Below, one piece after another: positions 1,291-16,062 of a DNA stretch of 18,475 nucleotides. Numbering within the stretch: position 1 is the stretch's first letter; each line of letters begins with the position of its first letter. Source of the stretch: Fibrobacterota bacterium. Lineage in GTDB: Bacteria; Fibrobacterota; Fibrobacteria; UBA11236. The position numbers and the translations under genes are program-made. The notes under the pieces are model-generated. The model saw only the letters and a program-made list of their open reading frames with translations. It did no database searches and had not been told where the DNA came from. The stretch covers positions 1-18,475 of the forward strand of contig JAYUVP010000177.1 of assembly GCA_043753995.1 (NCBI GenBank), read 5' to 3'.

Positions 1291-1968
1291 ATGAATAACC
1301 AAAATTCTGGACCGTGGCGGCAAAGCCTCGCTGCTGCTCGCCTAAACTTATGGCCAGGATTGGCATTGCAAACCGTCGCTCTTGGTTTGTTGGCATCCTA
1401 TTATTGGATTCCAGACATACGTGCCTTTTTTGATCAAGTCGCGCTGTTGAAACAACAGATGGGGTGGTGGTATGGGCTGATTTCCACTGCGGTTTTCGGC
1501 GGTGTCATCCCTTTTCTCTTTTTGCGTTTGAATCCCGCGACTCGCGCCATGACGCCTTATTCGCATGGCTTGTTTTACATCCTATTCTGGGGCTATAAAG
1601 GTCTAGAGGTCGATGCTTTGTACCGCTTGCAAGCCTGGCTTTTCGGATCAGGAAATGATTGGCGCACTCTTTCCCTTAAGGTGCTCGGCGATCAACTGAT
1701 TTACAATCCGATTTGGTCGGCACCCATGTCCGTGTTTTTCTTTCACTGGAAAGAATTGGGATTCGGTCTGGCCAATTTGCGGAAAACGCCATGGCTGTCC
1801 TATTTAAAGCAGGCCATACCTCCAGCCCTCGTTTCGACTTGGATTGTCTGGGTACCCACGGTGACCATCATTTATAGCCTGCCCTCATCCTTGCAGGTTC
1901 CCTTATTCAATGTGGTGCTTTGCTTTTGGGTGCTTTTGCTTACGACCTTGACACGCCATCGCAATTAG
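1291..1968 (+). CDS. Mpv17/PMP22-family integral membrane protein
   Basis: Several hydrophobic helices. Family-type motifs 'KVLGDQLIYNP' and 'WIVWVPTVTIIYSLP...LQVPLFNVVLCFW' (DQ and WxP..P..xxxN..W pattern). Confidence 0.75.
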   Translation: MNNQNSGPWRQSLAAARLNLWPGLALQTVALGLLASYYWIPDIRAFFDQVALLKQQMGWWYGLISTAVFGGVIPFLFLRLNPATRAMTPYSHGLFYILFWGYKGLEVDALYRLQAWLFGSGNDWRTLSLKVLGDQLIYNPIWSAPMSVFFFHWKELGFGLANLRKTPWLSYLKQAIPPALVSTWIVWVPTVTIIYSLPSSLQVPLFNVVLCFWVLLLTTLTRHRN

Positions 1969-2035: not shown

Positions 2036-2854
2036 ATGCACATGCCCTCCCCGCTTCACGAACTTTTCGCGGCACTCTGGAAAGGGTATGCCTCCATCAA
2101 CCCCCAGGCAAATCGCATACAAGACTTGCTGCGCTCTCGTGGTGAATTCGTGGAAAATGATCATATCGCCTTTCGCACTTTGAATTGGCCGGGCCTCACT
2201 ATCGACGATATGGCTGCGCCCTTCGTCGCCTGCGGCTATCGCGAACAAGGGCGCTATGTTTTCGTCGACAAGCATTTGACCGCCAAGCATTGGCAACACC
2301 CCGACGCATCCTGGCCAAAGGTTTTCATCAGCCAATTAGGGTGGAAGCATTTAACGCCGGGTGGCCAAAGCCTAATGATGCGTCTCGCCAATACGGTTCC
2401 GCCTCAGGCTTTAAATCCTAGGCCGCTTTGCATCACGGGCCGACCTTGGAATCTAACCCTTGGAGAATATCAGGCCCTGGCCAGAGAGAGCGAATATGCC
2501 GCATGGCTTGCGGCCTTTGGATTTCAGGCCAATCACTTCACGGTAGCCGCCCATGGTTTGCAATCTTTTTCTTCCCTGCTTGATCTCAATGTGTTTATTA
2601 AGTCCCAGGGCTTTGCCCTGAATAATGCCGGCGGAGAAATCAAAGGCTCCCCTGGAGAAGGTTTGGAACAAAGCAGTACTTGGGCATCCTCCGTGCCGGT
2701 GAAATTTTCGGATGGCATGCTTTCCGTTCCAGGCTGCTATTATGAATTTGCTTGGCGCTTCAAACGCTCCGACGGTTCCTTATTTCATGGCTTCTTGGAA
2801 AAATCGGCGGACAAGATTTTCGAGAGCACGCACAGCCGTCAGGCGAAAGCATAA
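2036..2854 (+). CDS. DUF1338 family protein; HglS/YdcJ-like Fe(II)-dependent 2-oxoadipate dioxygenase/decarboxylase (short form)
   Basis: Family motifs 'NDHIAFRT', 'PKVFIS', 'ESEYAAW', 'NHFT', 'GGEIKGS', 'LEQSST', 'YYEFAWR', 'GFLEKSADKIFEST'. His/His/Glu metal triad and the Arg of FRT are present. Confidence 0.9.
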   Translation: MHMPSPLHELFAALWKGYASINPQANRIQDLLRSRGEFVENDHIAFRTLNWPGLTIDDMAAPFVACGYREQGRYVFVDKHLTAKHWQHPDASWPKVFISQLGWKHLTPGGQSLMMRLANTVPPQALNPRPLCITGRPWNLTLGEYQALARESEYAAWLAAFGFQANHFTVAAHGLQSFSSLLDLNVFIKSQGFALNNAGGEIKGSPGEGLEQSSTWASSVPVKFSDGMLSVPGCYYEFAWRFKRSDGSLFHGFLEKSADKIFESTHSRQAKA

Positions 2855-4218
2855 AGATCCGGTAATCGCAATAGCTTTGCCAAATCGCTAAGAGCACGCT
2901 TCAATTCCAAAGCCAAACCCGCATCTCGCAAATCCTGCGGCGATAGGCGATCGCGATAATGCTTTTTCACCCAGGCTTCCAAAGCGTCGAGCTTGGCCGA
3001 GGTCATTTTCACGCCTTCGGGCAGCCCCTGCCATTGCCGGGGAGTCAAGACCAAACGCAAGCGAAGGCAGGCGGGCCCACCTCCATTGCGCATGCTTTGG
3101 CGCAAATCCAGGCTTTGCCATTTTTGAATCACGCCTTCGCTGACCGCCCGTTGTAGTAGTCTCCGAGATTTTGGATTCTCTTCGCTTTCCTCGGCGCAAA
3201 GCAAACGGAGTCCGCCATCAGGCAATTCAAACAATTGGCTATTGAAGAAATAGGTGGTCACGGCTTCGCGCAAGGACAATTGCCGAGCCGAAACCCGGAA
3301 TAGGTGCAAAGGGCGACGATTCAAATCGCGATAACGCTTTTCGGTTTCGGCCAAGGCGGCCTCGCCTTCGGCATAGGCCTGTTCATGCACCAGCCACGTT
3401 TCGCCTTGCCCCACCGCGATGACATCATTGTGAAAAACTCCGGCGTCGATGGCGCGCGGATTTTGGCGAAGGTGCCAAACCTGGCTTTCGGCAAGTCGGT
3501 GCTGGCGGACTAGGGCTTGGCTCGCCTCCAGGGATTGGCGGGCAGGGTATTTTTCCGGTGACGTCCCTGCAGGGTGACGCCCTCCGGCGGCATTACCGGC
3601 ATTTCCTGCCCGGCCATGCACGAAGACGTGGAGGCCTTTGCTTCCAGGCGAAGGCGCGAAGCGCGTGTGATTGGCGCCCCCTTCGTCGCCGAAACGCGCG
3701 TCGCAAGGCAAAGCATCATGATGCTCAAAGCCAGCCTCGACGGGCAGAATGCGCCGTAGGATATGCCCGCTTTGATTCGCCTCCAGGGACCGATGCAGGG
3801 TACCGAGCAAATTCGCGGGGGTCACGTGCGCAGGACCCCGGGAATGATCGGCAGCGGGCGAATAGGTGGCTGCATTCGCGGCCCACATGGCGGAAGAACT
3901 CCAAACGGAGGCCAATAAGGCCGGATCAACGCGATAAGCCGCGTCCAGCATGTCGGAGAGTTTCCCATGAAAGCCGAGTCTGCGTAAAAAGTCAAAGTCC
4001 GGCCGCATTTGGGGCGGCAAAAACAATTGCGGCACGCCAGCTTCCACAAGCGCTCTCATTTTTTGCAGGCCTTGCAAAGCCGCCAGGCGCGGATTGGACG
4101 CTTCACCGCGATGTTTTTGCGAGGCTACATTGCCGAAACTGAGTCCGGCATAATTGTGATTCGGCCCCGCCAAGCCGTCGAGATTGGCATCGAAAGCATT
4201 GCTGCCGGGAGTTTTCAT
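2839..4218 (-). CDS. astB: N-succinylarginine dihydrolase
   Basis: 'NLDGLAGPNHNYAGLSFGNVAS', 'SSAMWAANAAT', 'GDEGGANH', 'YPARQS', 'GVFHNDVIAV', 'SMRNGGGPACLRLR'. Start revised to ATG 4218, which overlaps the astD stop (ATGA); the 72 upstream codons in the ORF track lie inside astD. Confidence 0.96.
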   Translation of the reverse strand: MKTPGSNAFDANLDGLAGPNHNYAGLSFGNVASQKHRGEASNPRLAALQGLQKMRALVEAGVPQLFLPPQMRPDFDFLRRLGFHGKLSDMLDAAYRVDPALLASVWSSSAMWAANAATYSPAADHSRGPAHVTPANLLGTLHRSLEANQSGHILRRILPVEAGFEHHDALPCDARFGDEGGANHTRFAPSPGSKGLHVFVHGRAGNAGNAAGGRHPAGTSPEKYPARQSLEASQALVRQHRLAESQVWHLRQNPRAIDAGVFHNDVIAVGQGETWLVHEQAYAEGEAALAETEKRYRDLNRRPLHLFRVSARQLSLREAVTTYFFNSQLFELPDGGLRLLCAEESEENPKSRRLLQRAVSEGVIQKWQSLDLRQSMRNGGGPACLRLRLVLTPRQWQGLPEGVKMTSAKLDALEAWVKKHYRDRLSPQDLRDAGLALELKRALSDLAKLLRLPDLYAFA

Positions 4219-5681
4219 GGCCTTCTCAAACCCGGTAGCAACGCGCTGGCAACCATGCGTTCCGCTTCGAGTGAGGCCACGGGATAGGCACAATAATCGG
4301 CAGCGGCATAAGCGCTCGGGCGATGATTGCCGCTGTGGCCCACGCCACCGAAAGGCAATTTGGCGCTGGCCCCGGTGAGCGGCCGGTTCCAATTCACGAC
4401 GCCTGCGCGCACCTCGGTAACGAAGCGATTCCAAAGTTCGGGTTGACGGCTGATCAGACCGGCGGAAAGGCCATAGCTTGTGGCATTGGCTGCCGCGATA
4501 GCGGCATCGAAGTCAGGCACGCGAACGATTTGCAAAAGCGGCCCGAAGGCTTCCTCATCCGGTAACTTGCCCGCTTCGGTCACATCCCAAATACCAGGGC
4601 TCAGCAAACATGGGCCACGCTCCGACGCCTGCATGCGCAGCATGGGCTTGGCTCCGGCCTTTTCCCAAAGCTCTTGGGTCGCCAGCAAATCAGAAGCGGC
4701 GCGGTCATGAATGACCGGACCATAAAAAGGTTCGGGCTTGTCGTCGGGAAAACCAAATTGCAAAGCCCGCGCCCATTGCACTAGGGATGCAATCAAGGCA
4801 TCGCCTTCCGCGCCTTCAGGCAGAATCAGCCGCCGCGCGCAAACGCAGCGCTGGCCAGCGGTGAGAAAGGCGGATTGCAAGGTCAGTAACACCGCGGTTT
4901 CCTGACACTCCGCATCCCAAATCACCAGGGGATTATTTCCGCCTAATTCCAAGGCCAGAATTTTGTCCGGTTTGTCGGCGAAAAGTCGATTGAGCGCCAA
5001 TCCGGCGCGATAACTGCCGGTGAAGAAAAGGCCGTCGAGGCCGGAATGGGCTGCCAAGGCTGCCCCGACATCACGGTTACCCTGAACCAAATTGAGAACG
5101 CCTGACGGTAAACCAGAGGCTTGCCATTGTTGTGCGAGAAAGGCACCCACTTGCGGCGCGAATTCTGAAGGCTTGAAGAGGACGGTATTCCCGGCGAGCA
5201 AGGCCGGAATCAAATGACTATGCGGTAAATGCGCAGGAAGATTAAAAGGGCCGAGCACGGCCACCACTCCGTGCGGCCTATGCCTTAAGACCCCACGGAA
5301 TCCGTCCATGGGTAATTCACGTGCGGCCAAGCGATCGGCCTGCGCCGCAATGGTTACCTCCACCTTTGCGGGCAATAAATCCGCCTCTTGCAAAGCTTCC
5401 CAATGCGGTTTGCCCGTGGCCTCGGATATCAAGCAGGCGAGGGCTTCTCTTTCCTGCTTGATTCGATCGGCGAAAGCACGGACAAAGACTTGCCTTTCCG
5501 CCTCCGCAAGCCGCGACCAGGACGGAAAAGCCTTACGCGCCGCTGTGATCGCCGCATCGACTTGCCAAGCATCGGCCTGACGACTTTCCCAAATCCATTC
5601 GCCAGTGCAAGGATTGGCATGTCGGAAAATTTCGCCCTGACCTTCTTGCCAAGCATTCGCGATGAAGGCTCCCGCTTGCAT
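4215..5681 (-). CDS. astD: N-succinylglutamate 5-semialdehyde dehydrogenase
   Basis: ALDH motifs 'GPFNLP', 'KPSE', 'FTGS', 'LELGGNNP', 'AGQRCVC', 'EEAFGP', plus the AstD-typical C-terminus 'GNHRPSAYAAADYCAYP'. Start ATG 5681 with SD GGGGAG and TAATG overlap with the astA stop. Confidence 0.94.
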   Translation of the reverse strand: MQAGAFIANAWQEGQGEIFRHANPCTGEWIWESRQADAWQVDAAITAARKAFPSWSRLAEAERQVFVRAFADRIKQEREALACLISEATGKPHWEALQEADLLPAKVEVTIAAQADRLAARELPMDGFRGVLRHRPHGVVAVLGPFNLPAHLPHSHLIPALLAGNTVLFKPSEFAPQVGAFLAQQWQASGLPSGVLNLVQGNRDVGAALAAHSGLDGLFFTGSYRAGLALNRLFADKPDKILALELGGNNPLVIWDAECQETAVLLTLQSAFLTAGQRCVCARRLILPEGAEGDALIASLVQWARALQFGFPDDKPEPFYGPVIHDRAASDLLATQELWEKAGAKPMLRMQASERGPCLLSPGIWDVTEAGKLPDEEAFGPLLQIVRVPDFDAAIAAANATSYGLSAGLISRQPELWNRFVTEVRAGVVNWNRPLTGASAKLPFGGVGHSGNHRPSAYAAADYCAYPVASLEAERMVASALLPGLRRP

Positions 5682-6742
5682 TAACTCCCCGATTCTTCTC
5701 GACCAGCGTCCGTCGAGATGGGCCATGTGCCGCGCAGTGGACATATCCGCAAACCATCGCCCTTATTGACCTGTAAAGCAGCGGCGGCCTCCCGCGACAA
5801 TTCCACGCCTTGCCCCGAAAACAGGGGATGGGCCACGCAGGCGCGAAAGCCATGAGACTTTGTATTGGAAACGAGATAGGGCGCGGCGGAAGGCACATGG
5901 GGACCGGTGCCAATGATTTGGAATAATCGACTCTCGCGCACAGTTCGAATCGATTGGCGCGCGCAACTGACCACGGGACCGCCTTCGAAAATATCCACCA
6001 TGCCATTGCGGGCAAAGCCTTCGCTCTCAAGCAAATGCAAGGCAGGCGCGCTTTCAGGATGCACTTGATTCACCACCTCTTGCGCGGCCTTGGGCAAAAG
6101 TGAAACGTAAATGGGATGGCGAGGCATCAAATCGGCGAGAAAGGTTTTGTCCTTCATCACCAAATAATCAGCATGGGGGAATTCCATGTCGAAAAAATGG
6201 CGGCCCACGGCTTCCCAAAAAGGCGATTGTCCCTGATGATCAATGCGTCCTCGCATTTCCGCCAAGACCGTCTCATCGAAGTAACGGGGCTGATCGGCCA
6301 TGAATAGGAAGCGGCTGAGGGAAAGCAACCGACCATTATTTCCCCGGCGATGTGCGGGCGCTAAAAAAAGGCTGCCGATTTCCGAGGGACCATTGTGCTC
6401 CTGGATCAAATGCAAGGTGTCCAGGGCAATGCGTTTTTTCAACGATGGCGATTCGCGGATTTCTTTTTCGAGATGATAGGCATAAAAGGGTTCGAAGCCG
6501 CCCACCTTGGAGACCATACCGGAAATGCCAACCAAGCCTTCGTCTGGATCGATGAGGGCCAGCAAATACGTCTCACCGCCTGGCCTCTCGGCCGCGCGCG
6601 CGAAACCCCGCAGGGATTCGCGAATGCGCTTTTCCAGCACTTCCGGATCCGGCGGTAAGGTCGTGAGGCCATAACCGGCTCGCCGCGACAGCCGCACCAG
6701 GGATTCCAAGTCCTCGGCTTCGATGGGGCGGACATAAAGCAT
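5681..6742 (-). CDS. astA: arginine N-succinyltransferase (single-subunit type)
   Basis: 'VRPI...DL', 'GLTTLPPD', 'EPFYAY', 'SEIGSLFL', 'GRLLSLSRFLFMA', 'AEMRG', 'SPFWEAVGRHFF', 'LMPRHPIYVSLL', 'VHP', 'VDIFEGGP'. SD GAGGA upstream. Confidence 0.95.
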   Translation of the reverse strand: MLYVRPIEAEDLESLVRLSRRAGYGLTTLPPDPEVLEKRIRESLRGFARAAERPGGETYLLALIDPDEGLVGISGMVSKVGGFEPFYAYHLEKEIRESPSLKKRIALDTLHLIQEHNGPSEIGSLFLAPAHRRGNNGRLLSLSRFLFMADQPRYFDETVLAEMRGRIDHQGQSPFWEAVGRHFFDMEFPHADYLVMKDKTFLADLMPRHPIYVSLLPKAAQEVVNQVHPESAPALHLLESEGFARNGMVDIFEGGPVVSCARQSIRTVRESRLFQIIGTGPHVPSAAPYLVSNTKSHGFRACVAHPLFSGQGVELSREAAAALQVNKGDGLRICPLRGTWPISTDAGREESGS

Positions 6743-6757
6743 GGCTATCCTCGCGTC

Positions 6758-6777
6758 TTAGGGCGACCTTGCCCTAA
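6758..6777. other. intercistronic hairpin TTAGGGC-GACCTT-GCCCTAA between the aminotransferase gene and astA
   Basis: Perfect 7-bp inverted repeat with a 6-nt loop in the 40-nt spacer; no U-tract on the minus strand. Confidence 0.4.
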
Positions 6778-6782
6778 CCTGA

Positions 6783-8174
6783 TTATCCTCTGAAATTCTC
6801 GACCACGCTGTCGAAAATATCGGCGGCAGAATCGATCTCCTCTTCGGTGATGCATCCCAAAGGCAATAAAAAGCGAATGCGTGTGGGGTGAGAACCCGCG
6901 ATAAAGCCAATAAGACCGGCCTGAAATAAGGATTGCAAAAAAGCCGCCGCGCGCTTTTCGTCTCCACCCATGGGCGTATAAACCACCATAGCTCCCAATC
7001 CGAATGGCCCCGCCACCCTTTCCGGATACTTCTCCGCCGCCACTTGCAACCGCGAGCGAAACCGATTGGATAGAGTGACGATGCGACCCAGCGGACCGAA
7101 CCAACCTTCCTTTTTCCATTCACGAAGCACAGCCCTGCCTGCCTTCAGCGCAGCCGTCGCTGCAGTAAAGGTTTGGCTCACCAGTCCCGGTCCGGGTTTA
7201 TAGGCATCAGTGAAAAGAGTCGCGCAAACCTGGGTCAATTTGCCTATGGTCACCACTTCGGCATATTCTTCCAGGCCGAAATGCTGAAAGGCAAAAGCGT
7301 GATCGGTGCGACCGAAAGTTTGAATTTCATCGAATAGTATGCCGACCTTTGCTTCGCGCGCGCGCTGAAGCAAGGCTTTGAAAAAGGTAACGTCACCTTC
7401 GCGATACCCCCCACCTTCACCTTGAATCAATTCCAATATGAAAAAAGCATGATCGCCCGGATGTCGGGTCAAATGCTCATTCAATTTTTCTAAAGCCCGC
7501 TGCGTGCTACCCTGGGGATCCGCGGCATCGAAGTAAGGCAAATAATCCACCGCTATCGCTGGAGGCAAGCCCACGCGATAAGCCGGCTTGTCGGTAATAT
7601 GCGAAAGCGCCAGAGTGCGGCCAGCGAAATTATGTTCGAAAGCAAGCACTCGCCGTGCCGGAAATTTTTTCTGGAATAAAACCTTGAGCGCATTTTCATT
7701 GGCCATGGCTCCGCTGCTGGTTAAAAAACCATGCGCGAACTTGGCTCCGGTAGCATTGGCGAAATCGAGAAAAAGCCCGAGGACTTCTTCAGCGTCGCCG
7801 CTTTGCTGCAAATTCCCCTGCATGAGGGTGTCTTCGAGACAAGCATCAAAACCAGCATCCAGCATAAGCTCACTGCCATGCCCGAAATAATGCACGCCAA
7901 TGCCGGAGATGAAATCGTATTTGACGCTGCCATCAAGCAATTCCACCAAGGGGCCGCGCCCAAAGCCGCTGGCGATATAAGGAAAATAAAGAGCCGCCCC
8001 TCGCAGTTCCTGGAAATGCTTGAGCTTTGCCGCAAAGGCTTCGGCCCGCAGGGGATCGGGAGGGCGAATACCGGTCAAGCGAGTCTGAGCTTCACGCAAA
8101 GCCGAATGCAAAAGGGCGCGCGCCTGCGCCACTTGGGGACTTTGTTTCCAGTTCTCGGCTTGCAAGCTCGACAT
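6783..8174 (-). CDS. PLP-dependent class III aminotransferase (AstC/ArgD position; succinylornithine transaminase-like, with lysine-6-aminotransferase-like motifs)
   Basis: 'YDFISGIGVHYFGH', 'SGAMANENALK', 'FAGRT', 'ELIQGEGG', 'FDEIQT', PLP lysine in 'TIGKLTQVC'. Strong SD AGGAGA. Directly upstream of astA. Confidence 0.88.
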   Translation of the reverse strand: MSSLQAENWKQSPQVAQARALLHSALREAQTRLTGIRPPDPLRAEAFAAKLKHFQELRGAALYFPYIASGFGRGPLVELLDGSVKYDFISGIGVHYFGHGSELMLDAGFDACLEDTLMQGNLQQSGDAEEVLGLFLDFANATGAKFAHGFLTSSGAMANENALKVLFQKKFPARRVLAFEHNFAGRTLALSHITDKPAYRVGLPPAIAVDYLPYFDAADPQGSTQRALEKLNEHLTRHPGDHAFFILELIQGEGGGYREGDVTFFKALLQRAREAKVGILFDEIQTFGRTDHAFAFQHFGLEEYAEVVTIGKLTQVCATLFTDAYKPGPGLVSQTFTAATAALKAGRAVLREWKKEGWFGPLGRIVTLSNRFRSRLQVAAEKYPERVAGPFGLGAMVVYTPMGGDEKRAAAFLQSLFQAGLIGFIAGSHPTRIRFLLPLGCITEEEIDSAADIFDSVVENFRG

Positions 8175-8210
8175 GTCTTTTCTCCTGAATTATTTACTTG
8201 TACTAAGTAT

Positions 8211-9446
8211 TCAAGTTGCGCTTTTTGCCGGAGGCTGCCAAATCCCACTTGCCGCCGACATCAAAATCAAGGCGGCCAATTCGGCGCGCTCTCTCAGGCT
8301 AGGAAGATAGAGTTTCTCTCCAGCGCCGTGCAGTCCCTCACCTATAGGCCCGAGGGTATCCACATTGGGCAAGCCCGCCGCGGCCAAACGATTGCCATCG
8401 CAGACGCCCCCATTCTTGCGCACTTGCAAATGGAGACCAAGCGCCGCGCCGCAAGCCACGGCCTGTCGCAACATTTCCGACGTGCCTCCCATCATGGTTT
8501 TCGGAGGTGCGGTGAAGGCGCCTTGCCAAGCCAAGGAATAACCTTCGCGTGCATCCCAGCGATCTTTCAATTGCTTTAAAACCAACAAGATCTGTTTTTG
8601 CTGTTCGTCCGTTGCGATACGAAAATTGACCTGGGCGGTGGCCGCATCGGGCACTCGGTTAATGCTGCCTCCTCCCGAAATACTTCCCACATTCACCGTC
8701 AAACCACTTTCAAAATCAGTCCACTTTGATAATTCCGTAACGACTTCAGCAAGAGCATGAATAGCATTGCGACCCGCTTCGGGATTGCGCCCCGCATGCG
8801 CCGCGCGCCCCTGCATATGCAAGGTGAAATTGCCGGAGCCCTTGCGCTCGCCCACCAAGGCCCCATCGGCCAAGGCGGGCTCGAAGAGCAAACCGAAATG
8901 ACAAGCCGCTGCTTCTCGACGCAAAATCCCCGAAGAGCCCGGCGATCCGATTTCTTCATCGGGATTGAGCACGACGCGCCAGCCAACGTTTTGCGACCAG
9001 GGCGAATGCTCTAGACAAAGCAAGGCTTCGCGTAAAACGGCAATACCTCCCTTGGCATCGGCGCTGCCCGGGGCATGCAGCCAATCGCCATCCTGCCGCA
9101 TCCGTATGGAGGCAATGTCCTTTTCGCTTTCGGCATAAACCACATCGGTGTGTATGGCCAATAGCACCTGCAAAGGCGCTTTCGCACGCTTACGTAGGAC
9201 AAAAGCCGGCCCCAAGGGTTTCATGTCTTCCTGGCCTTGGGCTCGGTAGGCCATCAGCGGAGGCAAGGTCACGATTTCGCTTTCCCCTCCAAGTTCGGCA
9301 AAATCTTGTTGCAAGAGTTCGGCGAAAACGCGCAGGGCATCGCTGTCGAAAGAACCGGTGCGATGCTGGCACCACAGCGCCACGCGCGCAGCCATCGCGT
9401 CATCGCGTCCCGAAAACCAATGGAGTTGGCGGAGCAGGGCTTCCAT
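8211..9446 (-). CDS. M20 family metallo-amidohydrolase (carboxypeptidase G2/ArgE/DapE-like); probable desuccinylase of the AST operon
   Basis: Metal ligand motifs 'HTDVV', 'PGSADAKGG', 'DEEIGS', 'FEP', 'GLHGAGE'. Dimerisation domain 'GRAAHAG...GRNAI', 'NVGSISGGGSINRVPD'. Start ATG 9446 preferred over GTG 9506 (uncertain). Confidence 0.88.
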   Translation of the reverse strand: MEALLRQLHWFSGRDDAMAARVALWCQHRTGSFDSDALRVFAELLQQDFAELGGESEIVTLPPLMAYRAQGQEDMKPLGPAFVLRKRAKAPLQVLLAIHTDVVYAESEKDIASIRMRQDGDWLHAPGSADAKGGIAVLREALLCLEHSPWSQNVGWRVVLNPDEEIGSPGSSGILRREAAACHFGLLFEPALADGALVGERKGSGNFTLHMQGRAAHAGRNPEAGRNAIHALAEVVTELSKWTDFESGLTVNVGSISGGGSINRVPDAATAQVNFRIATDEQQKQILLVLKQLKDRWDAREGYSLAWQGAFTAPPKTMMGGTSEMLRQAVACGAALGLHLQVRKNGGVCDGNRLAAAGLPNVDTLGPIGEGLHGAGEKLYLPSLRERAELAALILMSAASGIWQPPAKSAT

Positions 9447-9746
9447 GCGATTCGATTCGCGGCGACATCCTGTCGCACGCGGCCTTCTAATAGGGAGTAT
9501 ACCCACCTAAGGTCTAGAAGGCACGCCGGGAAAATGCGCCATCCCCAAATGGGAAGAGCCCAACCTTGCGATTGAGCCTTCCACAACGGGTTTTGATTTT
9601 ATCAGGGGGATACCGCATGATATACCCTCCCTGGCGCAGGCCCCAATCCTGCTCACCCTTATATCCTAAGGGGTGGCGGCGCAGAGTGCCAAGTCAGGAC
9701 CACCGGGTTATGCTTTGCTAGGAATGCTCTTTTGAGGAGTTGGATA

Positions 9747-10223
9747 ATGCATGAGAGTGAAATTCTAAAATCGACGGCTTTATTGCCTTGGGAAAAAGAG
9801 GACGAATACGTCACCTTAACCTTTTTGCCCATGGCCATGCGTTACAAGCTCGATCGGGTCGGCTTTAAATTGCATCTCAAGCAATGGCAGGCATTTCCGA
9901 AAGAGGCGCGTCAAGCCCTGCTGGCCTTGCCTTGCGAATCTCCCGCCAACGGTGTCGACTTCACCCTGCGCCTTCGCGCTTTGACCCAAGAACATATCGG
10001 TGAAGATCTGGAGCCTTTACCCGCCAGGCTTTCCGCCGAAGCAACCGAAACTCCCGAAGAACTGAGGACGAAACTCCTGGCCATGGGTTTTGACTTAAGA
10101 GGCGACTTTTGGAAACAAGCATCTGCCTATTCGCGCTATTTGCTGACCAAGGTCGGACTTTCCTCAAAAAGCACCCATCACCTGACCCTACTCGCTCAAG
10201 CCTTGAATTTGCCTCGACTATAA
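9747..10223 (+). CDS. nitrate reductase-associated protein family (NarM-like) putative molybdoenzyme accessory protein
   Basis: 'LTFLPMAMRYKLDRVGFKLHLKQWQAFPKEARQALLALPC' matches the family pattern LxxIPMxVRxKLDxxGxKLxLxxWxxLxxxxRxxL, with C-terminal 'W..AS...RYLLTK' (recalled, not searched). ATG 9747 has SD GAGGAG and is preferred over TTG 9732. Confidence 0.78.
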   Translation: MHESEILKSTALLPWEKEDEYVTLTFLPMAMRYKLDRVGFKLHLKQWQAFPKEARQALLALPCESPANGVDFTLRLRALTQEHIGEDLEPLPARLSAEATETPEELRTKLLAMGFDLRGDFWKQASAYSRYLLTKVGLSSKSTHHLTLLAQALNLPRL

Positions 10224-10246
10224 ACCGGCATTACTAAATATCCACC

Positions 10247-10726
10247 ATGTCTTTCACCCATGTAGATGAACAAGGCCGCCCCGGCATGGTCGATGTCGGC
10301 GCCAAAATCGAAACCGCGCGACGCGCCAGGGCCCAGGCAAAAATCACCTTGCCCGAGGCGGTATTGGCCGCGGCGCAAGGCCAGGATTTGCTGACACCCA
10401 AGGGATCGGTCTTTCAAGCCGCCATTCTTGCGGGCACCATGGCCGCTAAAAAAACCTGGGACTTGATACCGCTTTGCCATCCCCTGCCCTTGAGCGGTTG
10501 CCGCATCGAATGCCGCCTTGAAGGTCGCCTCGCCATTATCGAAGCCACGGTTTCCACCCAAGCCGCTACCGGCGTTGAAATGGAAGCCCTCACTGCCGTG
10601 AGTGTGGCTGCGCTGACCGTCTATGATATGGCCAAGGCATTATCCCATGAAATCGTGATTCATGATATTCGTTTGCTGGAAAAAACCGGCGGAAAATCGG
10701 ATTATCGCGCCGAGAATCAATCATGA
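10247..10726 (+). CDS. moaC: cyclic pyranopterin monophosphate synthase MoaC
   Basis: 'FTHVDEQGRPGMVDVGAK', 'AAKKTWDLIPLCHPL', 'TGVEMEALTAVSVAALTVYDMAKA', 'LLEKTGGKS'. Confidence 0.97.
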   Translation: MSFTHVDEQGRPGMVDVGAKIETARRARAQAKITLPEAVLAAAQGQDLLTPKGSVFQAAILAGTMAAKKTWDLIPLCHPLPLSGCRIECRLEGRLAIIEATVSTQAATGVEMEALTAVSVAALTVYDMAKALSHEIVIHDIRLLEKTGGKSDYRAENQS

Positions 10727-11373
10727 GCACCACCGTGCTTTCTGCCGAGGAAAAAACAGGGGCCCCCATTTATGGCCTGGTGCTCGGTGGCGGCCGCAGC
10801 CGCCGCATGGGTGTCGACAAAGCCACCCTGATTTACCAAGGCAAGCCGCAACTTGAAATCGCCTATGACCTATTGGCGCCGTTTTGCGAAAAACGCTTTG
10901 TCGGCATTCGTCCTGAGCAGGCCCAGCTTCCCGGCTTCAGGGCTTTTCCCCCATTGTTCGATGCCTTTCCCGGTGAGGGACCGCTGGGCGCCGTGGTCTC
11001 GGCGCAAAAGCAATTCCCGGAAGCGGCCTGGCTGGTGGTGGCTTGCGACCTGCCTTTCTTGAAAGCAGAAACCATTGAAAAGTTATTGCTGGCGCGGTCC
11101 GTCTCGGCTCAAGCCATTGCCTATTCGAGCGCCTATGACGGCCTCGTCGAACCCATGTGCGCTTTGTATGAACCAGCCTCGGCTTCGCAGTTGGGCGAGG
11201 CTTTCGCGGAAGGATTGCGTTGCGCCCGTAAGGGTTTGCAAAAACTGAACCCCGTCACCTTGACGCTACCCTCGCCGCAAGACCTCGACAATGCCAATAC
11301 GCCGGAGGACCGCGTGGCCGCCTTGCAGGCGCTCGGCCAGGACAAGGCGAACCCAGTCGTAGAGGCAGGATAA
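10723..11373 (+). CDS. mobA: molybdenum cofactor guanylyltransferase MobA
   Basis: 'GLVLGGGRSRRMGVDKA', 'GPLGAV', 'VVACDLP', 'EPMCALY', 'NANTPED'. ATGA overlap with moaC. Confidence 0.92.
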   Translation: MSTTVLSAEEKTGAPIYGLVLGGGRSRRMGVDKATLIYQGKPQLEIAYDLLAPFCEKRFVGIRPEQAQLPGFRAFPPLFDAFPGEGPLGAVVSAQKQFPEAAWLVVACDLPFLKAETIEKLLLARSVSAQAIAYSSAYDGLVEPMCALYEPASASQLGEAFAEGLRCARKGLQKLNPVTLTLPSPQDLDNANTPEDRVAALQALGQDKANPVVEAG

Positions 11374-11374
11374 A

Positions 11375-11620
11375 GTGGCTTTGATTCGGGTTTTGCTTTA
11401 TGCGCAATTGCGCGAAACTCTTGGCCGCGAAGTGAATGTCGAATTGCCCCTGCCCGCATCAGAACCGGAGGTGCTGGAGCAATTGGCGGCGCAATTTCCC
11501 GCCCATGCCGCCTTGATTCGGCGCTGCCGCATTGCCGTGGATGATGCTTATCTGAATGAAGGTGAAATTGTGCCGCTTTGCAATACGCTTGATTTGATTG
11601 CACCTGTCAGCGGCGGGTAA
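11375..11620 (+). CDS. moaD: molybdopterin synthase sulfur carrier subunit (MoaD/ThiS family)
   Basis: 81-aa beta-grasp pattern 'IRVLLYAQLRE...IAVDDAY...LIAPVSGG' with C-terminal GG. GTG start 1 nt after the mobA stop. Confidence 0.92.
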   Translation: MALIRVLLYAQLRETLGREVNVELPLPASEPEVLEQLAAQFPAHAALIRRCRIAVDDAYLNEGEIVPLCNTLDLIAPVSGG

Positions 11621-11651
11621 TTTCAGTCTTCCATTATTAAATCAATCACCG

Positions 11652-14396: not shown

Positions 14397-14406
14397 GTCT
14401 TTTTCC

Positions 14407-16062
14407 TTAAGCGAAATAGTCGCGTAATTCCGGTTCGAAATACTTCAAGGCGTTCTTGACGCCTAATGGCAAGCCGCCGCCCAGGGCGCAGAGCGAACCG
14501 ATTTCCATGGTCTCCAGCAAATCGTCCATTAGCTTGCGGGGGATTTTGTATTCGCCGCTTTGTGCCTTGACCAGCATTTCCTGGCCTCGAACCGAGCCCA
14601 AACTGCAGGGGAAACACTTGCCGCACGATTCCGCTGCGGTGAATTCGAAAAGATGTTCGAGATAGGCAATGAGGGGGAAATTTTCCGGCAGGGAAACTAC
14701 GCCGGCATGCCCCATTAAAAATCCGTTAGCGGCGAAGGATTCGAAATCCAAGGTGAGATCCGGAATTTTATGCACCGGCACGAGGCCGCCTAATGGCCCG
14801 CCCACATGCACGGCTTTGACCGGCTGCTTAAAGCCACCACCCAACTTATTCACTACGTCCGAGAACGGCGTTCCCATGGCGACCTCATAGAGGCCGGGCT
14901 GGTTGAAAAGACTATCCAAGCACACCAACTTGGTGCCCGATGATTTCGTCGTTCCTGTTTTCGTGAAAGCCTCGCCACCCTTACTGAGCACTTCGTACAG
15001 GTTTGCCAAGGTCTCGACATTATTGACCACGGTAGGCTTGTTAAACAATCCCACTTGGGCAGGATAGGGAGGACGCACGCGCACTTCGGGGCGTTGCCCC
15101 TCGATTGAAGAAAGCAAGGCAGTTTCTTCGCCGCAGATATAGGCCCCCGCGCCTTCGATAACCTTGAAGCGGAAACTGAATCCGGTGCCCCGGATATTTT
15201 TCCCTAACCACTCGCCGCCTTCGAGCTCGGCTATGGCTTCACGCACAATCCGAATCGCCTCGGGGTATTCGCCTCGTATATACAAGACGCCGCAATCCGC
15301 GCCGACGATGAAACCGGCGGCCATCATGCCAAAGAGCACCAAGTGCGGTTGGCGTTCCAGCAGGTAGCGATCCGAATAGGCTCCAGGATCGCCTTCGTCG
15401 GCATTGCATACCACAAATTTTTGATCCGACTCCGTGCGGGCACAAGACTCCAGCTTGATGCCCATGGGGAATCCCGCTCCACCCCGGCCTCGAAGATTGG
15501 CGGCTTTGACTTCGGCCAAGGCGGCATCCCGGCCCTTGGCTATGACCGCTTCGAGCAAGGGATACATTTCCCCGACAGCCCGAACGGTTCCGGTCAAGAT
15601 GGGATTCGACAGGGTCGTGCCCACCGTATACTTGTCTTCGCTTTCCAAGGACTCGCCGGCGAAAAGGCGCTTGATTTCGGCTTCCGATTTTCCGGAATAG
15701 TTTTTCCCTTGAAATTGGAAAGCGCCATTTTCGTGGCAACGGCCCAAGCAACAAATGTGGCCGACCTCTTTTTCCGAAAATGTCTTCTCCAAAATTCCGG
15801 ACAAAGTGTTTTGGGTTCCCGCCACCAGGCAAGCGCTGCCATTGCAAACGCGAACCTTGACGCCCTTATTCTCTTGGCGCGTGAAATCGTAAAATGAAGC
15901 GGTGCCATAGACGGCGGCATCGCCAAACAAAAATTCCTTGGCCAATTCCTGCATCTGTTCGGAACTTGGCGTTCCCTCGCGTTTGGCGATTTGCACCACT
16001 TGTTCAAATAGGGAGCGCTCGACTCCTTTGCGGCCCGCTAGAAATCCCAGGTTTTCAGACAT
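14407..16062 (-). CDS. NAD/FMN-binding diaphorase subunit of formate dehydrogenase; NuoE-like [2Fe-2S] domain fused to NuoF-like domain (FdsG-FdsB-type fusion)
   Basis: N-terminal 'GTASFYDF', 'CNGSAC...CCLGRC' (NuoE-like); 'LRGRGGAGFP', 'CNADEGDPG', 'GAGAYICGEETALLSSIEG', 'NNVET', 'ESCGKCFPC...SLCALG' (NuoF-like). Ends 10 nt upstream of the alpha subunit start. Confidence 0.93.
   Translation of the reverse strand: MSENLGFLAGRKGVERSLFEQVVQIAKREGTPSSEQMQELAKEFLFGDAAVYGTASFYDFTRQENKGVKVRVCNGSACLVAGTQNTLSGILEKTFSEKEVGHICCLGRCHENGAFQFQGKNYSGKSEAEIKRLFAGESLESEDKYTVGTTLSNPILTGTVRAVGEMYPLLEAVIAKGRDAALAEVKAANLRGRGGAGFPMGIKLESCARTESDQKFVVCNADEGDPGAYSDRYLLERQPHLVLFGMMAAGFIVGADCGVLYIRGEYPEAIRIVREAIAELEGGEWLGKNIRGTGFSFRFKVIEGAGAYICGEETALLSSIEGQRPEVRVRPPYPAQVGLFNKPTVVNNVETLANLYEVLSKGGEAFTKTGTTKSSGTKLVCLDSLFNQPGLYEVAMGTPFSDVVNKLGGGFKQPVKAVHVGGPLGGLVPVHKIPDLTLDFESFAANGFLMGHAGVVSLPENFPLIAYLEHLFEFTAAESCGKCFPCSLGSVRGQEMLVKAQSGEYKIPRKLMDDLLETMEIGSLCALGGGLPLGVKNALKYFEPELRDYFA

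What the first reader, a model, noticed from the sequence alone, without database searches (positions are those of the whole stretch)
2036..9446. AST operon variant joined to an HglS/DUF1338 dioxygenase: possible succinyl-protected C6 (lysine/homoarginine) catabolic route
Seen: M20 hydrolase, class III aminotransferase, astA, astD, astB on the minus strand, converging on and overlapping an intact DUF1338 gene. Established: AstABCDE converts arginine to glutamate plus succinate, a C5 route that never makes 2-oxoadipate; HglS/YdcJ converts 2-oxoadipate (lysine catabolism) to D-2-hydroxyglutarate. Inference: the two non-canonical members (LAT-like transaminase, M20 desuccinylase) could let the operon also process the one-carbon-longer series: N2-succinyl-homoarginine/lysine, then succinyl-aminoadipate semialdehyde, succinyl-aminoadipate, 2-aminoadipate, 2-oxoadipate, HglS. 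An aminoadipate transaminase step would still be needed and is not obviously encoded here. Alternatively this DUF1338 subfamily has an unknown arginine-related substrate. I recall DUF1338 next to ast genes in some gammaproteobacteria, so the link may be conserved; unverified.
Basis: partly seen in the sequence, partly recalled or inferred. Interest (0 to 1): 0.72.

Follow-up and report, generated by a model that had tools for sequence, protein, structure and literature searches.

The report
AST operon linked to HglS dioxygenase
A variant arginine-breakdown (AST) gene cluster lies tail-to-tail with the gene for the enzyme that finishes lysine breakdown, and this pairing recurs in several bacterial phyla, which hints at an undescribed succinyl-protected route for lysine.

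Summary
On the minus strand lie an M20 hydrolase, an atypical class-III aminotransferase, astA, astD and astB. They converge on an intact short-form DUF1338 gene and overlap it by 16 bp. The DUF1338 protein is an HglS-type enzyme: it keeps the His/His/Glu triad and the substrate arginine, and its model matches rice HglS bound to 2-oxoadipate (TM 0.91).

Elsewhere this short form sits in lysine operons (lysine-dehydrogenase-like gene, AmaB, DUF1338, often with a YdiJ-like dehydrogenase), so 2-oxoadipate to D-2-hydroxyglutarate is its likely reaction.

AST-type genes flank DUF1338 in 18 of 80 public loci from at least four phyla, with several gene orders. In some they form one tightly packed same-strand cluster. 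The arrangement also persists through the window's own family.

All 12 AST-linked genomes examined lack AmaB. The six tested for LAT have none, and the only lysine-dehydrogenase-family gene among them looks like a polyamine enzyme.

My best reading (about 0.45) is that AST enzymes also carry lysine to 2-aminoadipate as N-succinyl intermediates and HglS finishes the job. This rests on genome context only. No D-2HG dehydrogenase was found in this genome.

By-product: a conserved three-hairpin RNA leader, matching no Rfam family, precedes the operon.

The parts
2036..2854 (+). Short-form DUF1338 gene (272 aa). It is an HglS-type Fe(II) 2-oxoadipate dioxygenase/decarboxylase candidate.
   Evidence: PF07063 at 76.8 bits. 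Matches PDB 3LHO at 2.7e-70 and rice HglS 6W1K at 1.2e-30. H43, R47, H167 and E237 are conserved in at least 97% of 77 relatives. The model (pLDDT 89) gives TM 0.87 to 3LHO and 0.91 to 6W1K.
2839..4218 (-). astB, N-succinylarginine dihydrolase. Its 3' end overlaps the DUF1338 3' end by 16 bp.
   Evidence: PF04996 at 529 bits. NF009789 at 522.6 bits against a cut-off of 452. TIGR03241 at 482.5 bits is below its cut-off of 538.3. The start ATG at 4218 overlaps the astD stop codon.
4215..5681 (-). astD, succinylglutamate-semialdehyde dehydrogenase.
   Evidence: TIGR03240 at 647.7 bits against 579.3, and NF006992 at 658 bits against 514. The likely start ATG at 5681 follows a GGGGAG motif. Alternative starts are at 5726 and 5744.
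5681..6742 (-). astA, arginine/ornithine N-succinyltransferase family.
   Evidence: PF04958 at 403 bits. The AOST subfamily model TIGR03243 scores 366.7 bits against 284. The AstA equivalog TIGR03244 scores 357 bits, below its cut-off of 391.
6783..8174 (-). Atypical class-III aminotransferase ('AT3'). It occupies the AstC position in the operon.
   Evidence: PF00202 at 127.7 bits. No NCBIfam model is reached; the best scores 110 bits against a cut-off of 552. In the PDB, acetylornithine aminotransferases and M. tuberculosis LAT both score about 65 bits. Orthologues at 37-51% identity sit beside astA in Planctomycetota and Bdellovibrionota and in the metagenome contig L094.
8211..9446 (-). M20 metallohydrolase of the PRK07338 type. 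It is a predicted N-succinyl-amino-acid desuccinylase that takes the place of AstE.
   Evidence: NF005602 at 410 bits against 357. The nearest solved structure is carboxypeptidase G2 at 89 bits. No AstE family member (PF04952) was found in the genome. The same M20 type sits in ast clusters of Neptuniibacter, Bremerella, Endozoicomonas, an Opitutales MAG, Parvularcula and Planctomicrobium.
9544..9666 (-). Conserved three-hairpin RNA motif in the roughly 210-nt leader of the M20-first ast operon.
   Evidence: Covariance model R1 matches at 121 bits. Of the structure's cells, 98.1% are paired, and 15 of 27 pairs show changes on both sides; 0 of 500 shuffles reach this. No Rfam family matches.
9663..9692 (-). 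Sigma-70-like promoter (TTGGCA, 18 nt, TAGGAT) directly upstream of the RNA motif.
   Evidence: It is the only promoter-like site in 9380-9780 (1 found against 0.3 expected). Both hexamer positions are conserved in the 12-sequence alignment.
1291..1968 (+). orf225, a predicted membrane protein of unknown family. It lies 67 nt upstream of DUF1338 on the same strand and may be co-transcribed.
   Evidence: It is syntenic at 63% identity in L093. There is only a weak Mpv17/PMP22 hit (E 0.0019). The Atlas returns hypothetical-protein clusters only. Two tandem paralogues lie on contig C190.
2..1214 (+). orf288 (2-868) and orf94 (930-1214), two unknown ORFs upstream of orf225.
   Evidence: They are syntenic in L093 at 46% and 62% identity. 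There are no Pfam or NCBIfam matches. The Atlas gives only a weak DUF8230 lead at 0.88.

Best explanation
The window encodes a complete but non-canonical arginine succinyltransferase (AST) operon. A distinct class-III transaminase replaces AstC, and a carboxypeptidase-G2-like M20 hydrolase replaces AstE. The operon is functionally coupled to a short-form HglS.

Shown:
- The gene identities.
- An intact HglS active site.
- The conserved, multi-phylum AST-HglS linkage.

Inferred pathway:
- AstA succinylates L-lysine as well as arginine or ornithine.
- The transaminase removes the 6-amino group, giving N2-succinyl-2-aminoadipate semialdehyde. The succinyl group prevents cyclisation.
- AstD oxidises that to N2-succinyl-2-aminoadipate.
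- The M20 hydrolase releases succinate and L-2-aminoadipate.
- An unassigned transaminase makes 2-oxoadipate.
- HglS converts 2-oxoadipate with O2 to D-2-hydroxyglutarate and CO2.
- D-2-hydroxyglutarate is then oxidised to 2-oxoglutarate.

Arginine still runs through the same enzymes, plus AstB, to glutamate. On this reading the operon with HglS would be a catabolic unit for basic amino acids in general.
For: 1. The DUF1338 protein is HglS-type.
- H43, R47, H167 and E237 are at least 97% conserved in 77 relatives.
- It matches 3LHO at 2.7e-70 and rice HglS at 1.2e-30, and the model gives TM 0.91 to rice HglS bound to 2-oxoadipate.
- Thompson 2020 (PMC7286885, passages read) shows that the triad plus the arginine define 2-oxoadipate specificity in both long and short forms.

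2. In other lineages the short form sits in lysine operons.
- A saccharopine-dehydrogenase-family gene, AmaB (685-760 bits on NF050084) and DUF1338 lie together.
- A YdiJ-like dehydrogenase lies within 8 kb in 20 of 77 loci.

3. AST genes flank DUF1338 in 18 of 80 public loci, with different gene orders.
- Neptuniibacter: astC, M20, DUF1338, astA, astD, astB on one strand, with 4-bp overlaps.
- Opitutales: astD, DUF1338, M20, astB.
- Rheinheimera and one gammaproteobacterial MAG: astC, astA, astD, DUF1338.
- Endozoicomonas: astC, M20, DUF1338.
- Bacteriovoracaceae, Bremerella and Planctomicrobium also show the linkage.
- Metagenome contig L094 has M20, AT3, astA, astD, astB, DUF1338 all on one strand.

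4. The arrangement persists in the window's own family.
- All 18 relatives that carry the ast leader RNA also carry DUF1338 (one of the 18, G422, is unpublished).
- In 12 of them the two lie 6.9-10.3 kb apart on one contig.
- L093 (68% identity) is fully syntenic.

5. The known routes to 2-aminoadipate are missing.
- AmaB at or above its cut-off: 0 of 12 AST-linked genomes.
- LAT: 0 of 6.
- Sacchrp_dh_C: 0 of 5, plus one in the own genome that best matches carboxynorspermidine synthase.

6. Among 50 DUF1338 genomes, 17 have AmaB only, 20 have AstA only, 2 have both and 11 have neither. Fisher p is 0.0003, but this is confounded by phylogeny.

7. Only 4 alignment columns separate AST-linked from lysine-operon-linked DUF1338 proteins. 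Three are conservative swaps (K/R, D/E, V/I) and one is A/Y. This gives no sign of a different substrate.

8. There is a precedent for AstA paralogues with a changed diamino-acid substrate: A. baumannii AstO/AstN act on ornithine (PMC12375414, passages read).
Against: - There is no biochemical or genetic evidence. The A. baumannii paper reports AstA substrates as arginine and ornithine only, and the word 'lysine' occurs 0 times in it.
- In the window the two units converge, so they are not co-transcribed.
- AstB is present in the operon, so the operon can be explained by arginine alone.
- The window's genome (97% complete, 356 contigs) has no YdiJ and no FAD-oxidase_C protein, so the fate of D-2-hydroxyglutarate is open.
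- No 2-aminoadipate transaminase is assigned. The P. putida type is absent from 16 of 16 genomes tested, including AmaB-type ones, so that marker tells nothing either way.
- 11 of 50 DUF1338 genomes have neither AstA nor AmaB. Most of these are Bacteroidales MAGs.
- In Bdellovibrionota, AstA-like genes are common without DUF1338: 85 of 119 DUF1338-negative genomes have one.
- The AmaB/AstA complementarity largely follows phylum boundaries.
Confidence: 0.45

Rival explanations
1. These are two separate pathways kept together for regulation or by history. The AST enzymes handle only arginine and ornithine. HglS handles 2-oxoadipate from another source: imported 2-aminoadipate, an unrecognised lysine route, or damage products. 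The genes cluster because basic amino acids are taken up and regulated together.
For: - The orientation in the window is convergent.
- AstB is present, so arginine explains the operon.
- In Endozoicomonas, astA-astD-astB lie apart from astC-M20-DUF1338.
- Planctomicrobium SH661, Piscirickettsia, Parvularcula and Bdellovibrio have both gene sets, but not adjacent.
- 11 of 50 DUF1338 genomes have neither AstA nor AmaB.
Against: - In Neptuniibacter, the Opitutales MAG and L094, DUF1338 lies within or at the end of the same-strand ast gene cluster. No other lysine gene is present there.
- The linkage recurs with at least five gene orders in at least four phyla.
- No alternative 2-aminoadipate route was found in any of the AST-linked genomes tested.
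Confidence: 0.27
2. Lysine is degraded by part of the cluster without succinylation. The atypical transaminase acts on free lysine, as LAT does. The AstD-type dehydrogenase oxidises free aminoadipate semialdehyde, as AmaB does. HglS then follows. AstA, AstB and M20 serve arginine only.
For: - The transaminase is as close to LAT as to acetylornithine aminotransferases.
- The dehydrogenase next to DUF1338 is AmaB in other lineages and AstD-like here, which suggests analogous roles.
Against: - In Rheinheimera, Neptuniibacter and Endozoicomonas the transaminase is a canonical AstC/ArgD type (TIGR03246 at 676.7 bits against 610), not a LAT.
- AstA is linked in 15 of 77 loci.
- The window's AstD passes the AstD equivalog cut-off.
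Confidence: 0.1
3. In the AST context the DUF1338 enzyme uses a different 2-oxo-dicarboxylate, or another arginine-derived 2-oxo acid, rather than 2-oxoadipate.
For: - No D-2-hydroxyglutarate dehydrogenase was found in the window's genome.
- One non-conservative column (A159 against Tyr) separates AST-linked from lysine-operon-linked proteins.
Against: - The metal triad and the carboxylate-binding Arg are conserved, and 62 columns are at least 97% conserved across all contexts.
- P. putida HglS was active only on 2-oxoadipate among the 2-oxo acids tested (passage).
- A FAD-oxidase gene sits directly upstream of DUF1338 in the AST-linked Bacteriovoracaceae locus L032.
- YdiJ-sized FAD-oxidase frames are present in 4 of 5 AST-linked genomes.
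- No AST intermediate is a 2-oxo acid (established pathway knowledge).
Confidence: 0.08
4. The adjacency is a chance event with no functional meaning.
For: Convergent neighbours need not be related.
Against: - 18 of 80 public loci show the pairing, where well under one would be expected by chance.
- The arrangement is conserved through the window's own family.
- In three lineages DUF1338 lies inside a same-strand ast gene cluster.
Confidence: 0.02

Closest known systems
AST pathway, astCADBE of E. coli and aruCFGDBE of P. aeruginosa (names recalled; family models tested)
   Same: AstA, AstB and AstD family members lie in one tightly packed operon. The chemistry is the same: N2-succinylation, guanidino removal, omega-transamination, aldehyde oxidation, then desuccinylation.
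   Different: - AstC is replaced by a separate class-III clade that reaches no NCBIfam cut-off.
- AstE is absent from the genome and is replaced by a PRK07338-type M20 hydrolase.
- An HglS gene is linked to the operon.
- A structured RNA leader precedes the operon.
HglS, 2-oxoadipate dioxygenase/decarboxylase: P. putida PP_5260, rice FLO7 (PDB 6W1K) and the uncharacterised Shewanella frigidimarina protein 3LHO (Thompson 2020, PMC7286885, passages read)
   Same: It has the same Pfam family, the same His/His/Glu plus Arg active site, and the same fold (TM 0.87-0.91). It shares 44% identity with 3LHO and 33% with FLO7 in the structural alignment.
   Different: - It is a short form (272 aa). P. 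putida HglS, with 434-450 residues in its PDB chains, carries extra helical parts; TM to that form is only 0.55-0.57.
- Its genomic partners are AST genes, not known lysine genes.
- Its activity has not been tested.
Lysine 6-dehydrogenase/LAT, AmaB, transaminase, HglS, YdiJ route from lysine to 2-oxoglutarate (operons seen in L134 and L098)
   Same: The same short-form DUF1338 is the last dedicated enzyme. Both contexts pair it with an enzyme set that turns a terminal amino group into a carboxylate.
   Different: Here the partners are the succinyl-dependent AST enzymes. AmaB, LAT and a lysine-dehydrogenase-type gene were not found in this genome.
A. baumannii AstO/AstN, a second partial AST operon specific for ornithine (PMC12375414, passages read)
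   Same: It shows that AstA/AstC-type pairs can specialise on another diamino acid and work with the shared downstream AST enzymes.
   Different: Its substrate is ornithine (C5). It has no HglS and no M20. Lysine is not mentioned in the paper.
LysW/N-acyl-protected aminoadipate lysine biosynthesis, which parallels arginine biosynthesis (recalled knowledge, no call)
   Same: It is a precedent for one set of N-protected C5 enzymes also handling the C6 homologues.
   Different: It is biosynthetic and uses a carrier protein or an acetyl group, not succinyl-CoA. It is offered only as an analogy.

Membership tests
HglS / DUF1338 (PF07063) | Pfam model matched above the gathering score | tested here: met
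   76.8 bits against a cut-off of 25.
HglS / DUF1338 (PF07063) | His-His-Glu metal triad (HglS H70/H226/E294) | tested here: met
   H43, H167 and E237 align to the DH..R, NH.T and YEFA motifs of 3LHO and 6W1K. They are at least 97% conserved in 77 relatives. The triad itself is defined.
HglS / DUF1338 (PF07063) | Arginine that binds the distal carboxylate of 2-oxoadipate (HglS R74, FLO7 R64) | tested here: met
   R47 lies four residues after H43, as in HglS.
HglS / DUF1338 (PF07063) | VOC-type fold of the solved DUF1338 structures | tested here: met
   The model has pLDDT 89.3. TM is 0.87 to 3LHO and 0.91 to 6W1K.
HglS / DUF1338 (PF07063) | Fe(II)/O2-dependent conversion of 2-oxoadipate to D-2-hydroxyglutarate | not testable with these tools
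   This needs an enzyme assay.
AST pathway (AstABCDE) | AstA succinyltransferase | tested here: met
   PF04958 at 403 bits, and the AOST subfamily model at 366.7 bits against 284. The AstA equivalog is not reached (357 bits against 391).
AST pathway (AstABCDE) | AstB succinylarginine dihydrolase | tested here: met
   PF04996 at 529 bits and NF009789 at 522.6 bits against 452. TIGR03241 is below its cut-off.
AST pathway (AstABCDE) | AstD succinylglutamate-semialdehyde dehydrogenase | tested here: met
   TIGR03240 at 647.7 bits against 579.3.
AST pathway (AstABCDE) | AstC-type succinylornithine transaminase | tested here: not met
   The operon's transaminase reaches no model cut-off. The argD/astC family model TIGR00707 scores 109.6 bits against 410. 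It is 28.6% identical to a Neptuniibacter AstC.
AST pathway (AstABCDE) | AstE succinylglutamate desuccinylase (PF04952) | tested here: not met
   There is no match in the 97%-complete genome. An M20 hydrolase stands in the operon instead.
Canonical lysine to 2-aminoadipate module | LAT or lysine 6-dehydrogenase, plus AmaB, in the same genome | tested here: not met
   The best LAT score is 92 bits against 521. The best AmaB score is 298 bits against 730. The only Sacchrp_dh_C protein best matches carboxynorspermidine synthase. tblastn with AmaB and lysDH-like queries finds no orthologue.
D-2-hydroxyglutarate dehydrogenase (YdiJ / FAD-oxidase type) | A YdiJ or FAD-oxidase_C protein in the same genome | tested here: not met
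   There are no matches. The genome is 97% complete, so absence is not proven.
Any Rfam family (for the ast leader RNA) | Match at the gathering score | tested here: not met
   There are 0 matches in the window. At E up to 10 there are only two chance-level hits.

The most novel reading that the evidence does not exclude
Many bacteria that lack LAT, lysine dehydrogenase and AmaB may degrade L-lysine by an undescribed N2-succinyl-lysine pathway. The AST enzymes (AstA, AstC or the atypical transaminase, AstD, and an M20 or AstE desuccinylase) would convert lysine to 2-aminoadipate, and the linked short-form HglS would channel it to D-2-hydroxyglutarate and 2-oxoglutarate. In the window's family the operon would in addition be controlled by a new structured leader RNA, possibly a riboswitch for a basic amino acid.
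Probability: 0.4. Interest if true: 0.8.

Novelty: new variant of a known kind. Interest (0 to 1): 0.68.

Why it matters
Lysine catabolism is still unassigned in many bacteria. A succinyl-protected route would add a new lysine pathway. It would explain why an HglS gene travels with arginine genes in at least four phyla, and it would give a role to a large 'DUF1338' group and to a widespread M20 'hydrolase'. It would also correct automatic annotations that read these clusters as arginine-only. The hypothesis can be tested directly in cultured strains such as Neptuniibacter, Rheinheimera, Bremerella and Bdellovibrio. The leader RNA is a separate candidate for a new cis-regulatory RNA in front of an amino-acid catabolic operon.

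Tried and rejected
- RNA evidence: no RNA holder was listed for the stretch, only two DNA runs that may be the source sample.
- The argument 'Bacteriovoracaceae lack AstB, so the cluster cannot be for arginine' failed. The complete Bacteriovoracaceae genome G005 has astB elsewhere.
- A P. putida-type 2-aminoadipate transaminase (NF049976) as a marker: 0 of 16 genomes reach the cut-off, including AmaB-type ones, so it is uninformative.
- Second AstA copies in Bacteriovoracaceae (32% identity) stand alone without ast neighbours and gave no evidence of a paralogous full pathway.
- A DUF1338 tree by context: only the quick tree finished. Its backbone is unresolved and the window's branch is long, so I draw no origin or clade claim from it.
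- Within Bdellovibrionota, AstA-like genes are too common (114 of 151 genomes) for co-occurrence with DUF1338 (29 of 32 against 85 of 119; p 0.035) to mean much.
- A Moco riboswitch as the explanation for the conserved intergenic block: there is no Rfam match, and the motif is always on the M20 strand.
- The leader RNA model found nothing near DUF1338 or in the AST loci of other phyla.
- Atlas look-ups of orf225 and orf288 gave only hypothetical-protein clusters.
- Literature searches found nothing:
  - DUF1338 with succinyltransferase: 0 papers.
  - A combined search on succinyl-lysine spellings, astA, hglS and 'lysine catabolism': 0 papers.
  - Succinyl-aminoadipate and succinyl-homoarginine names: 0 papers.
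  - A wider search on succinyl-lysine spellings, aminoadipate and succinyltransferase: of the 15 listed, 14 are on protein succinylation and one is an insect amino-acid-degradation survey; none describes such a route.
  - All 12 papers that mention DUF1338 were listed. I checked two for 'succinyl' (0 occurrences) and read the DUF1338 passage of a third.
- Earlier scan notes: none were found.

Full report
**Observation**

The window carries intact frames at the stated coordinates.
- A short DUF1338 gene lies at 2036-2854 on the plus strand.
- On the minus strand lie astB (2839-4218), astD (4215-5681), astA (5681-6742), a class-III aminotransferase (6783-8174) and an M20 hydrolase (8211-9446).
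- DUF1338 and astB converge and share 16 bp.
- astD/astB overlap as ATGA, and astA/astD overlap by one base.
- AstD passes its equivalog cut-off. AstA and AstB pass their subfamily cut-offs but not their equivalog cut-offs.
- The transaminase reaches no NCBIfam cut-off. The M20 protein passes NF005602, the 'PRK07338 hydrolase' model.

The genome holds 5.2 Mb in 356 contigs and is 97% complete. It has one DUF1338 gene and no AstE family member. It has single copies of all ast genes, and all of them are in this window.

**What the DUF1338 protein is**

- It matches the uncharacterised Shewanella protein 3LHO at 2.7e-70 and rice HglS (FLO7, 6W1K) at 1.2e-30.
- An AlphaFold model (pLDDT 89.3) superposes on 3LHO at TM 0.87 and on rice HglS bound to 2-oxoadipate at TM 0.91.
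- Thompson et al. 2020 (PMC7286885, passages read) define HglS by a His/His/Glu triad plus one arginine that binds the distal carboxylate. They show that FLO7 has the same activity as the long P. putida enzyme.
- The corresponding residues here are H43, H167, E237 and R47. All are at least 97% conserved in 77 relatives.

**What the short form sits next to elsewhere**

I fetched 80 loci from species genomes, called ORFs and clustered them. Of the 80 loci, 76 plus the window had a clustered DUF1338 ORF. Four fell out at this step.
- The commonest neighbour is a roughly 980-aa YdiJ-like FAD/Fe-S dehydrogenase. It occurs in 20 of 77 loci. The representative scores 645 bits on the YdiJ model, below the equivalog cut-off.
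- In Bacteroidota, in two sampled gammaproteobacterial genomes and in a metagenome subgroup, the adjacent aldehyde dehydrogenase is AmaB. It scores 685-760 bits on NF050084 even as partial translations. It often follows a saccharopine-dehydrogenase-family gene: L134 reads lysDH-like, amaB, DUF1338, and L098 also has the YdiJ-like gene.

This context supports 2-oxoadipate to D-2-hydroxyglutarate as the family's reaction in bacteria.

**The AST linkage**

tblastn with the window's proteins found AST-type genes within 8 kb of DUF1338 in 18 of 80 loci.
- Neptuniibacter: astC, M20, DUF1338, astA, astD, astB on one strand, with 4-bp overlaps.
- An Opitutales MAG: astD, DUF1338, M20, astB.
- Rheinheimera and one gammaproteobacterial MAG: astC, astA, astD, DUF1338.
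- Endozoicomonas: astC, M20, DUF1338.
- Eight Bacteriovoracaceae loci: an AstD-like dehydrogenase divergent from DUF1338, with astA and the atypical transaminase a few kb away.
- Bremerella: the five-gene variant 2 kb downstream.
- A Planctomicrobium MAG: convergent, as in the window.

Further support comes from other collections.
- A metagenome scan gave L093 (68% identity), which is fully syntenic including three unknown upstream ORFs.
- The same scan gave L094 (52% identity), with M20, transaminase, astA, astD, astB and DUF1338 all on one strand.
- In a sample of 201 genomes of Neptuniibacter's class, 7 had the short form. Two of those were AST-linked and two AmaB-linked.

**The window's own family**

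- DUF1338 occurs in 21 of 31 relatives.
- All 18 relatives that carry the ast leader RNA (described below) also have DUF1338. In 12 of them the two lie 6.9-10.3 kb apart on one contig.
- One of the 18, G422, is unpublished. It enters only these tallies.

**Are other routes to 2-aminoadipate present?**

- In five AST-linked genomes (G001-G005), AmaB, LAT and Sacchrp_dh_C were each found in 0 of 5. All five have FAD-oxidase_C proteins, four of them of YdiJ size. All five have AstB.
- In locus L032 a FAD-oxidase gene lies directly upstream of DUF1338.
- The window's genome has no LAT or AmaB at cut-off. Its single Sacchrp_dh_C protein best matches carboxynorspermidine synthase.
- I chose 50 of the 80 loci for whole-genome searches. 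I left out the seven loci of G001-G005 and their near-duplicates, and 23 others, many from short contigs. The choice was not random. Results: AmaB in 19, AstA in 22, both in 2, AmaB only in 17, AstA only in 20, neither in 11. Fisher p is 0.0003.
- All six AST-linked genomes in that set lack AmaB. Together with G001-G005 and the window, that makes 0 of 12.
- The split largely follows phyla (Bacteroidota against the rest), so the p-value overstates independence.

**Wider pattern**

- Of the 22 genomes with both DUF1338 and AstA, only 7 have AstB. Three complete Bdellovibrio chromosomes lack it.
- Bdellovibrio HCB337 carries a tight cluster of the atypical transaminase, an ArgE/DapE-type M20, an AstA-like gene and an AstD-like gene. 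This cassette cannot start from arginine. Ornithine or lysine are the candidate substrates.
- In 151 Bdellovibrionota genomes, six carry a second, higher-scoring AstA (369-390 bits). All six are DUF1338-positive, and in three the gene lies 3-5 kb from DUF1338. They may represent one clade.

**The two non-canonical members**

- The transaminase scores alike against acetylornithine aminotransferases and against M. tuberculosis LAT, at about 65 bits each. 'LAT-like' is therefore not a specific assignment.
- Close homologues of the transaminase and of DUF1338 list the same 'longest contig' lengths, including Fibrobacterota MAGs. This suggests shared contigs, though adjacency was not checked.
- The nearest solved relative of the M20 protein is carboxypeptidase G2. 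From recalled knowledge, that enzyme cleaves an N-acyl-glutamate bond.
- Genomes with this M20 in the cluster mostly lack AstE. This fits a role as desuccinylase.

**Interpretation**

HglS needs 2-oxoadipate. Its operon partners in other lineages turn lysine's 6-amino group into a carboxylate. In AST-linked lineages the only such enzymes near it, and the only ones found in the genome, are the succinyl-dependent ones.

The simplest model is that AST enzymes also process lysine as N2-succinyl intermediates to 2-aminoadipate. I hold this at about 0.45.

Several gaps remain:
- There is no biochemical evidence.
- The 2-aminoadipate transaminase is unassigned.
- No D-2-hydroxyglutarate dehydrogenase was found in this genome.
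- The orientation here is convergent.
- Arginine alone can explain the operon.

Only four alignment columns separate AST-linked from lysine-operon-linked DUF1338 proteins, which gives no sign of a different substrate.

I found no paper linking DUF1338 to AST or describing succinyl-C6 intermediates. The two Thompson papers contain 'succinyl' 0 times. A V. natriegens lysine overproducer carries a DUF1338 V92I change (PMC8605253, passage read), which is anecdotal. Supplements were not consulted.

**By-product: a conserved leader RNA**

- The 285-bp spacer upstream of the M20 gene is more conserved between the window and L093 than the coding DNA is.
- A 12-sequence alignment shows a promoter-like TTGGCA, 18 nt, TAGGAT followed by three hairpins.
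- A covariance model finds one strong copy in 18 of 31 family relatives and in the window.
- In all 16 published relatives with flanking sequence, the motif lies on the M20 strand directly upstream of the M20 gene.
- One further copy, in G410, follows a peptidase gene instead.
- On the model-fitted alignment, 98.1% of cells pair, and 15 of 27 pairs change on both sides. No shuffle out of 500 reaches this, and slid controls give at most 7 such pairs. That alignment leans toward the model.
- The third hairpin lacks a U-tract.
- No Rfam family matches.

I read this as a new cis-regulatory leader of the operon. Its ligand or protein partner is unknown.

Noticed in passing
window 9544-9692 (-): A conserved promoter-like site plus a three-hairpin RNA motif lie in the leader of the M20-first ast operon. 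The motif is found in 18 of 31 family relatives, always upstream of the M20 gene. Covariation is strong and no Rfam family matches. It is a candidate new cis-regulatory RNA.
   Followed up: yes
L144 7097-12378 (Bdellovibrio sp. HCB337): A tight four-gene cassette: atypical class-III transaminase, ArgE/DapE-type M20, AstA-like and AstD-like genes, in a complete genome without AstB or AmaB. The substrate cannot be arginine. AstA-like genes occur in 114 of 151 Bdellovibrionota genomes sampled.
   Followed up: partly
L021 8820-10463 (-) (Bremerella sp.): A 547-aa frame fuses an N-terminal response-regulator receiver domain to a glutamate dehydrogenase. It lies between DUF1338 and the AST operon.
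   Followed up: no
16 Bacteroidota loci, e.g. L070 6943-7923: A lipoate-protein ligase gene (TIGR00545 at 426 bits) lies a median of 14 bp from DUF1338, usually together with the YdiJ-like dehydrogenase. The reason for this linkage is unexplained.
   Followed up: no
window 1291-1968; G000 contig C190 35-1443: orf225, upstream of DUF1338, is a predicted membrane protein of an uncharacterised family (Atlas clusters commonest in Verrucomicrobiota). It has two tandem paralogues (53-55% identity) on another contig.
   Followed up: partly
window 9732-16062: To the right of the operon lie a NarM-like gene, moaC and mobA on the plus strand. On the minus strand lie a 914-aa formate-dehydrogenase alpha subunit with N-terminal Fe-S domains and a NuoE/NuoF-like fusion. 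A Ser/Thr kinase runs off the window's end. In 8 relatives moaC is the divergent neighbour of the ast leader.
   Followed up: no
G207 C1 980895-982205; G423 C41 6471-7259; G000 C228 949-2337: In-frame stop codons occur inside otherwise full-length matches: TGA in Planctomicrobium SH661 astB, TAA in one relative's DUF1338, and TGA in an aldehyde dehydrogenase of the window's genome. They could be pseudogenes, sequencing errors or recoding.
   Followed up: no
L098 7905-8966: The saccharopine-dehydrogenase-family gene upstream of DUF1338-amaB is split into two adjacent ORFs (191 and 161 aa) in this metagenome contig. This is probably a frameshift or an assembly error.
   Followed up: no
L180 1501-1621 (G410 C43): A second, weaker copy of the leader RNA motif (68.6 bits) lies after an astacin/tectonin peptidase gene and before a convergent caspase-domain gene. 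It is not near any ast gene.
   Followed up: partly
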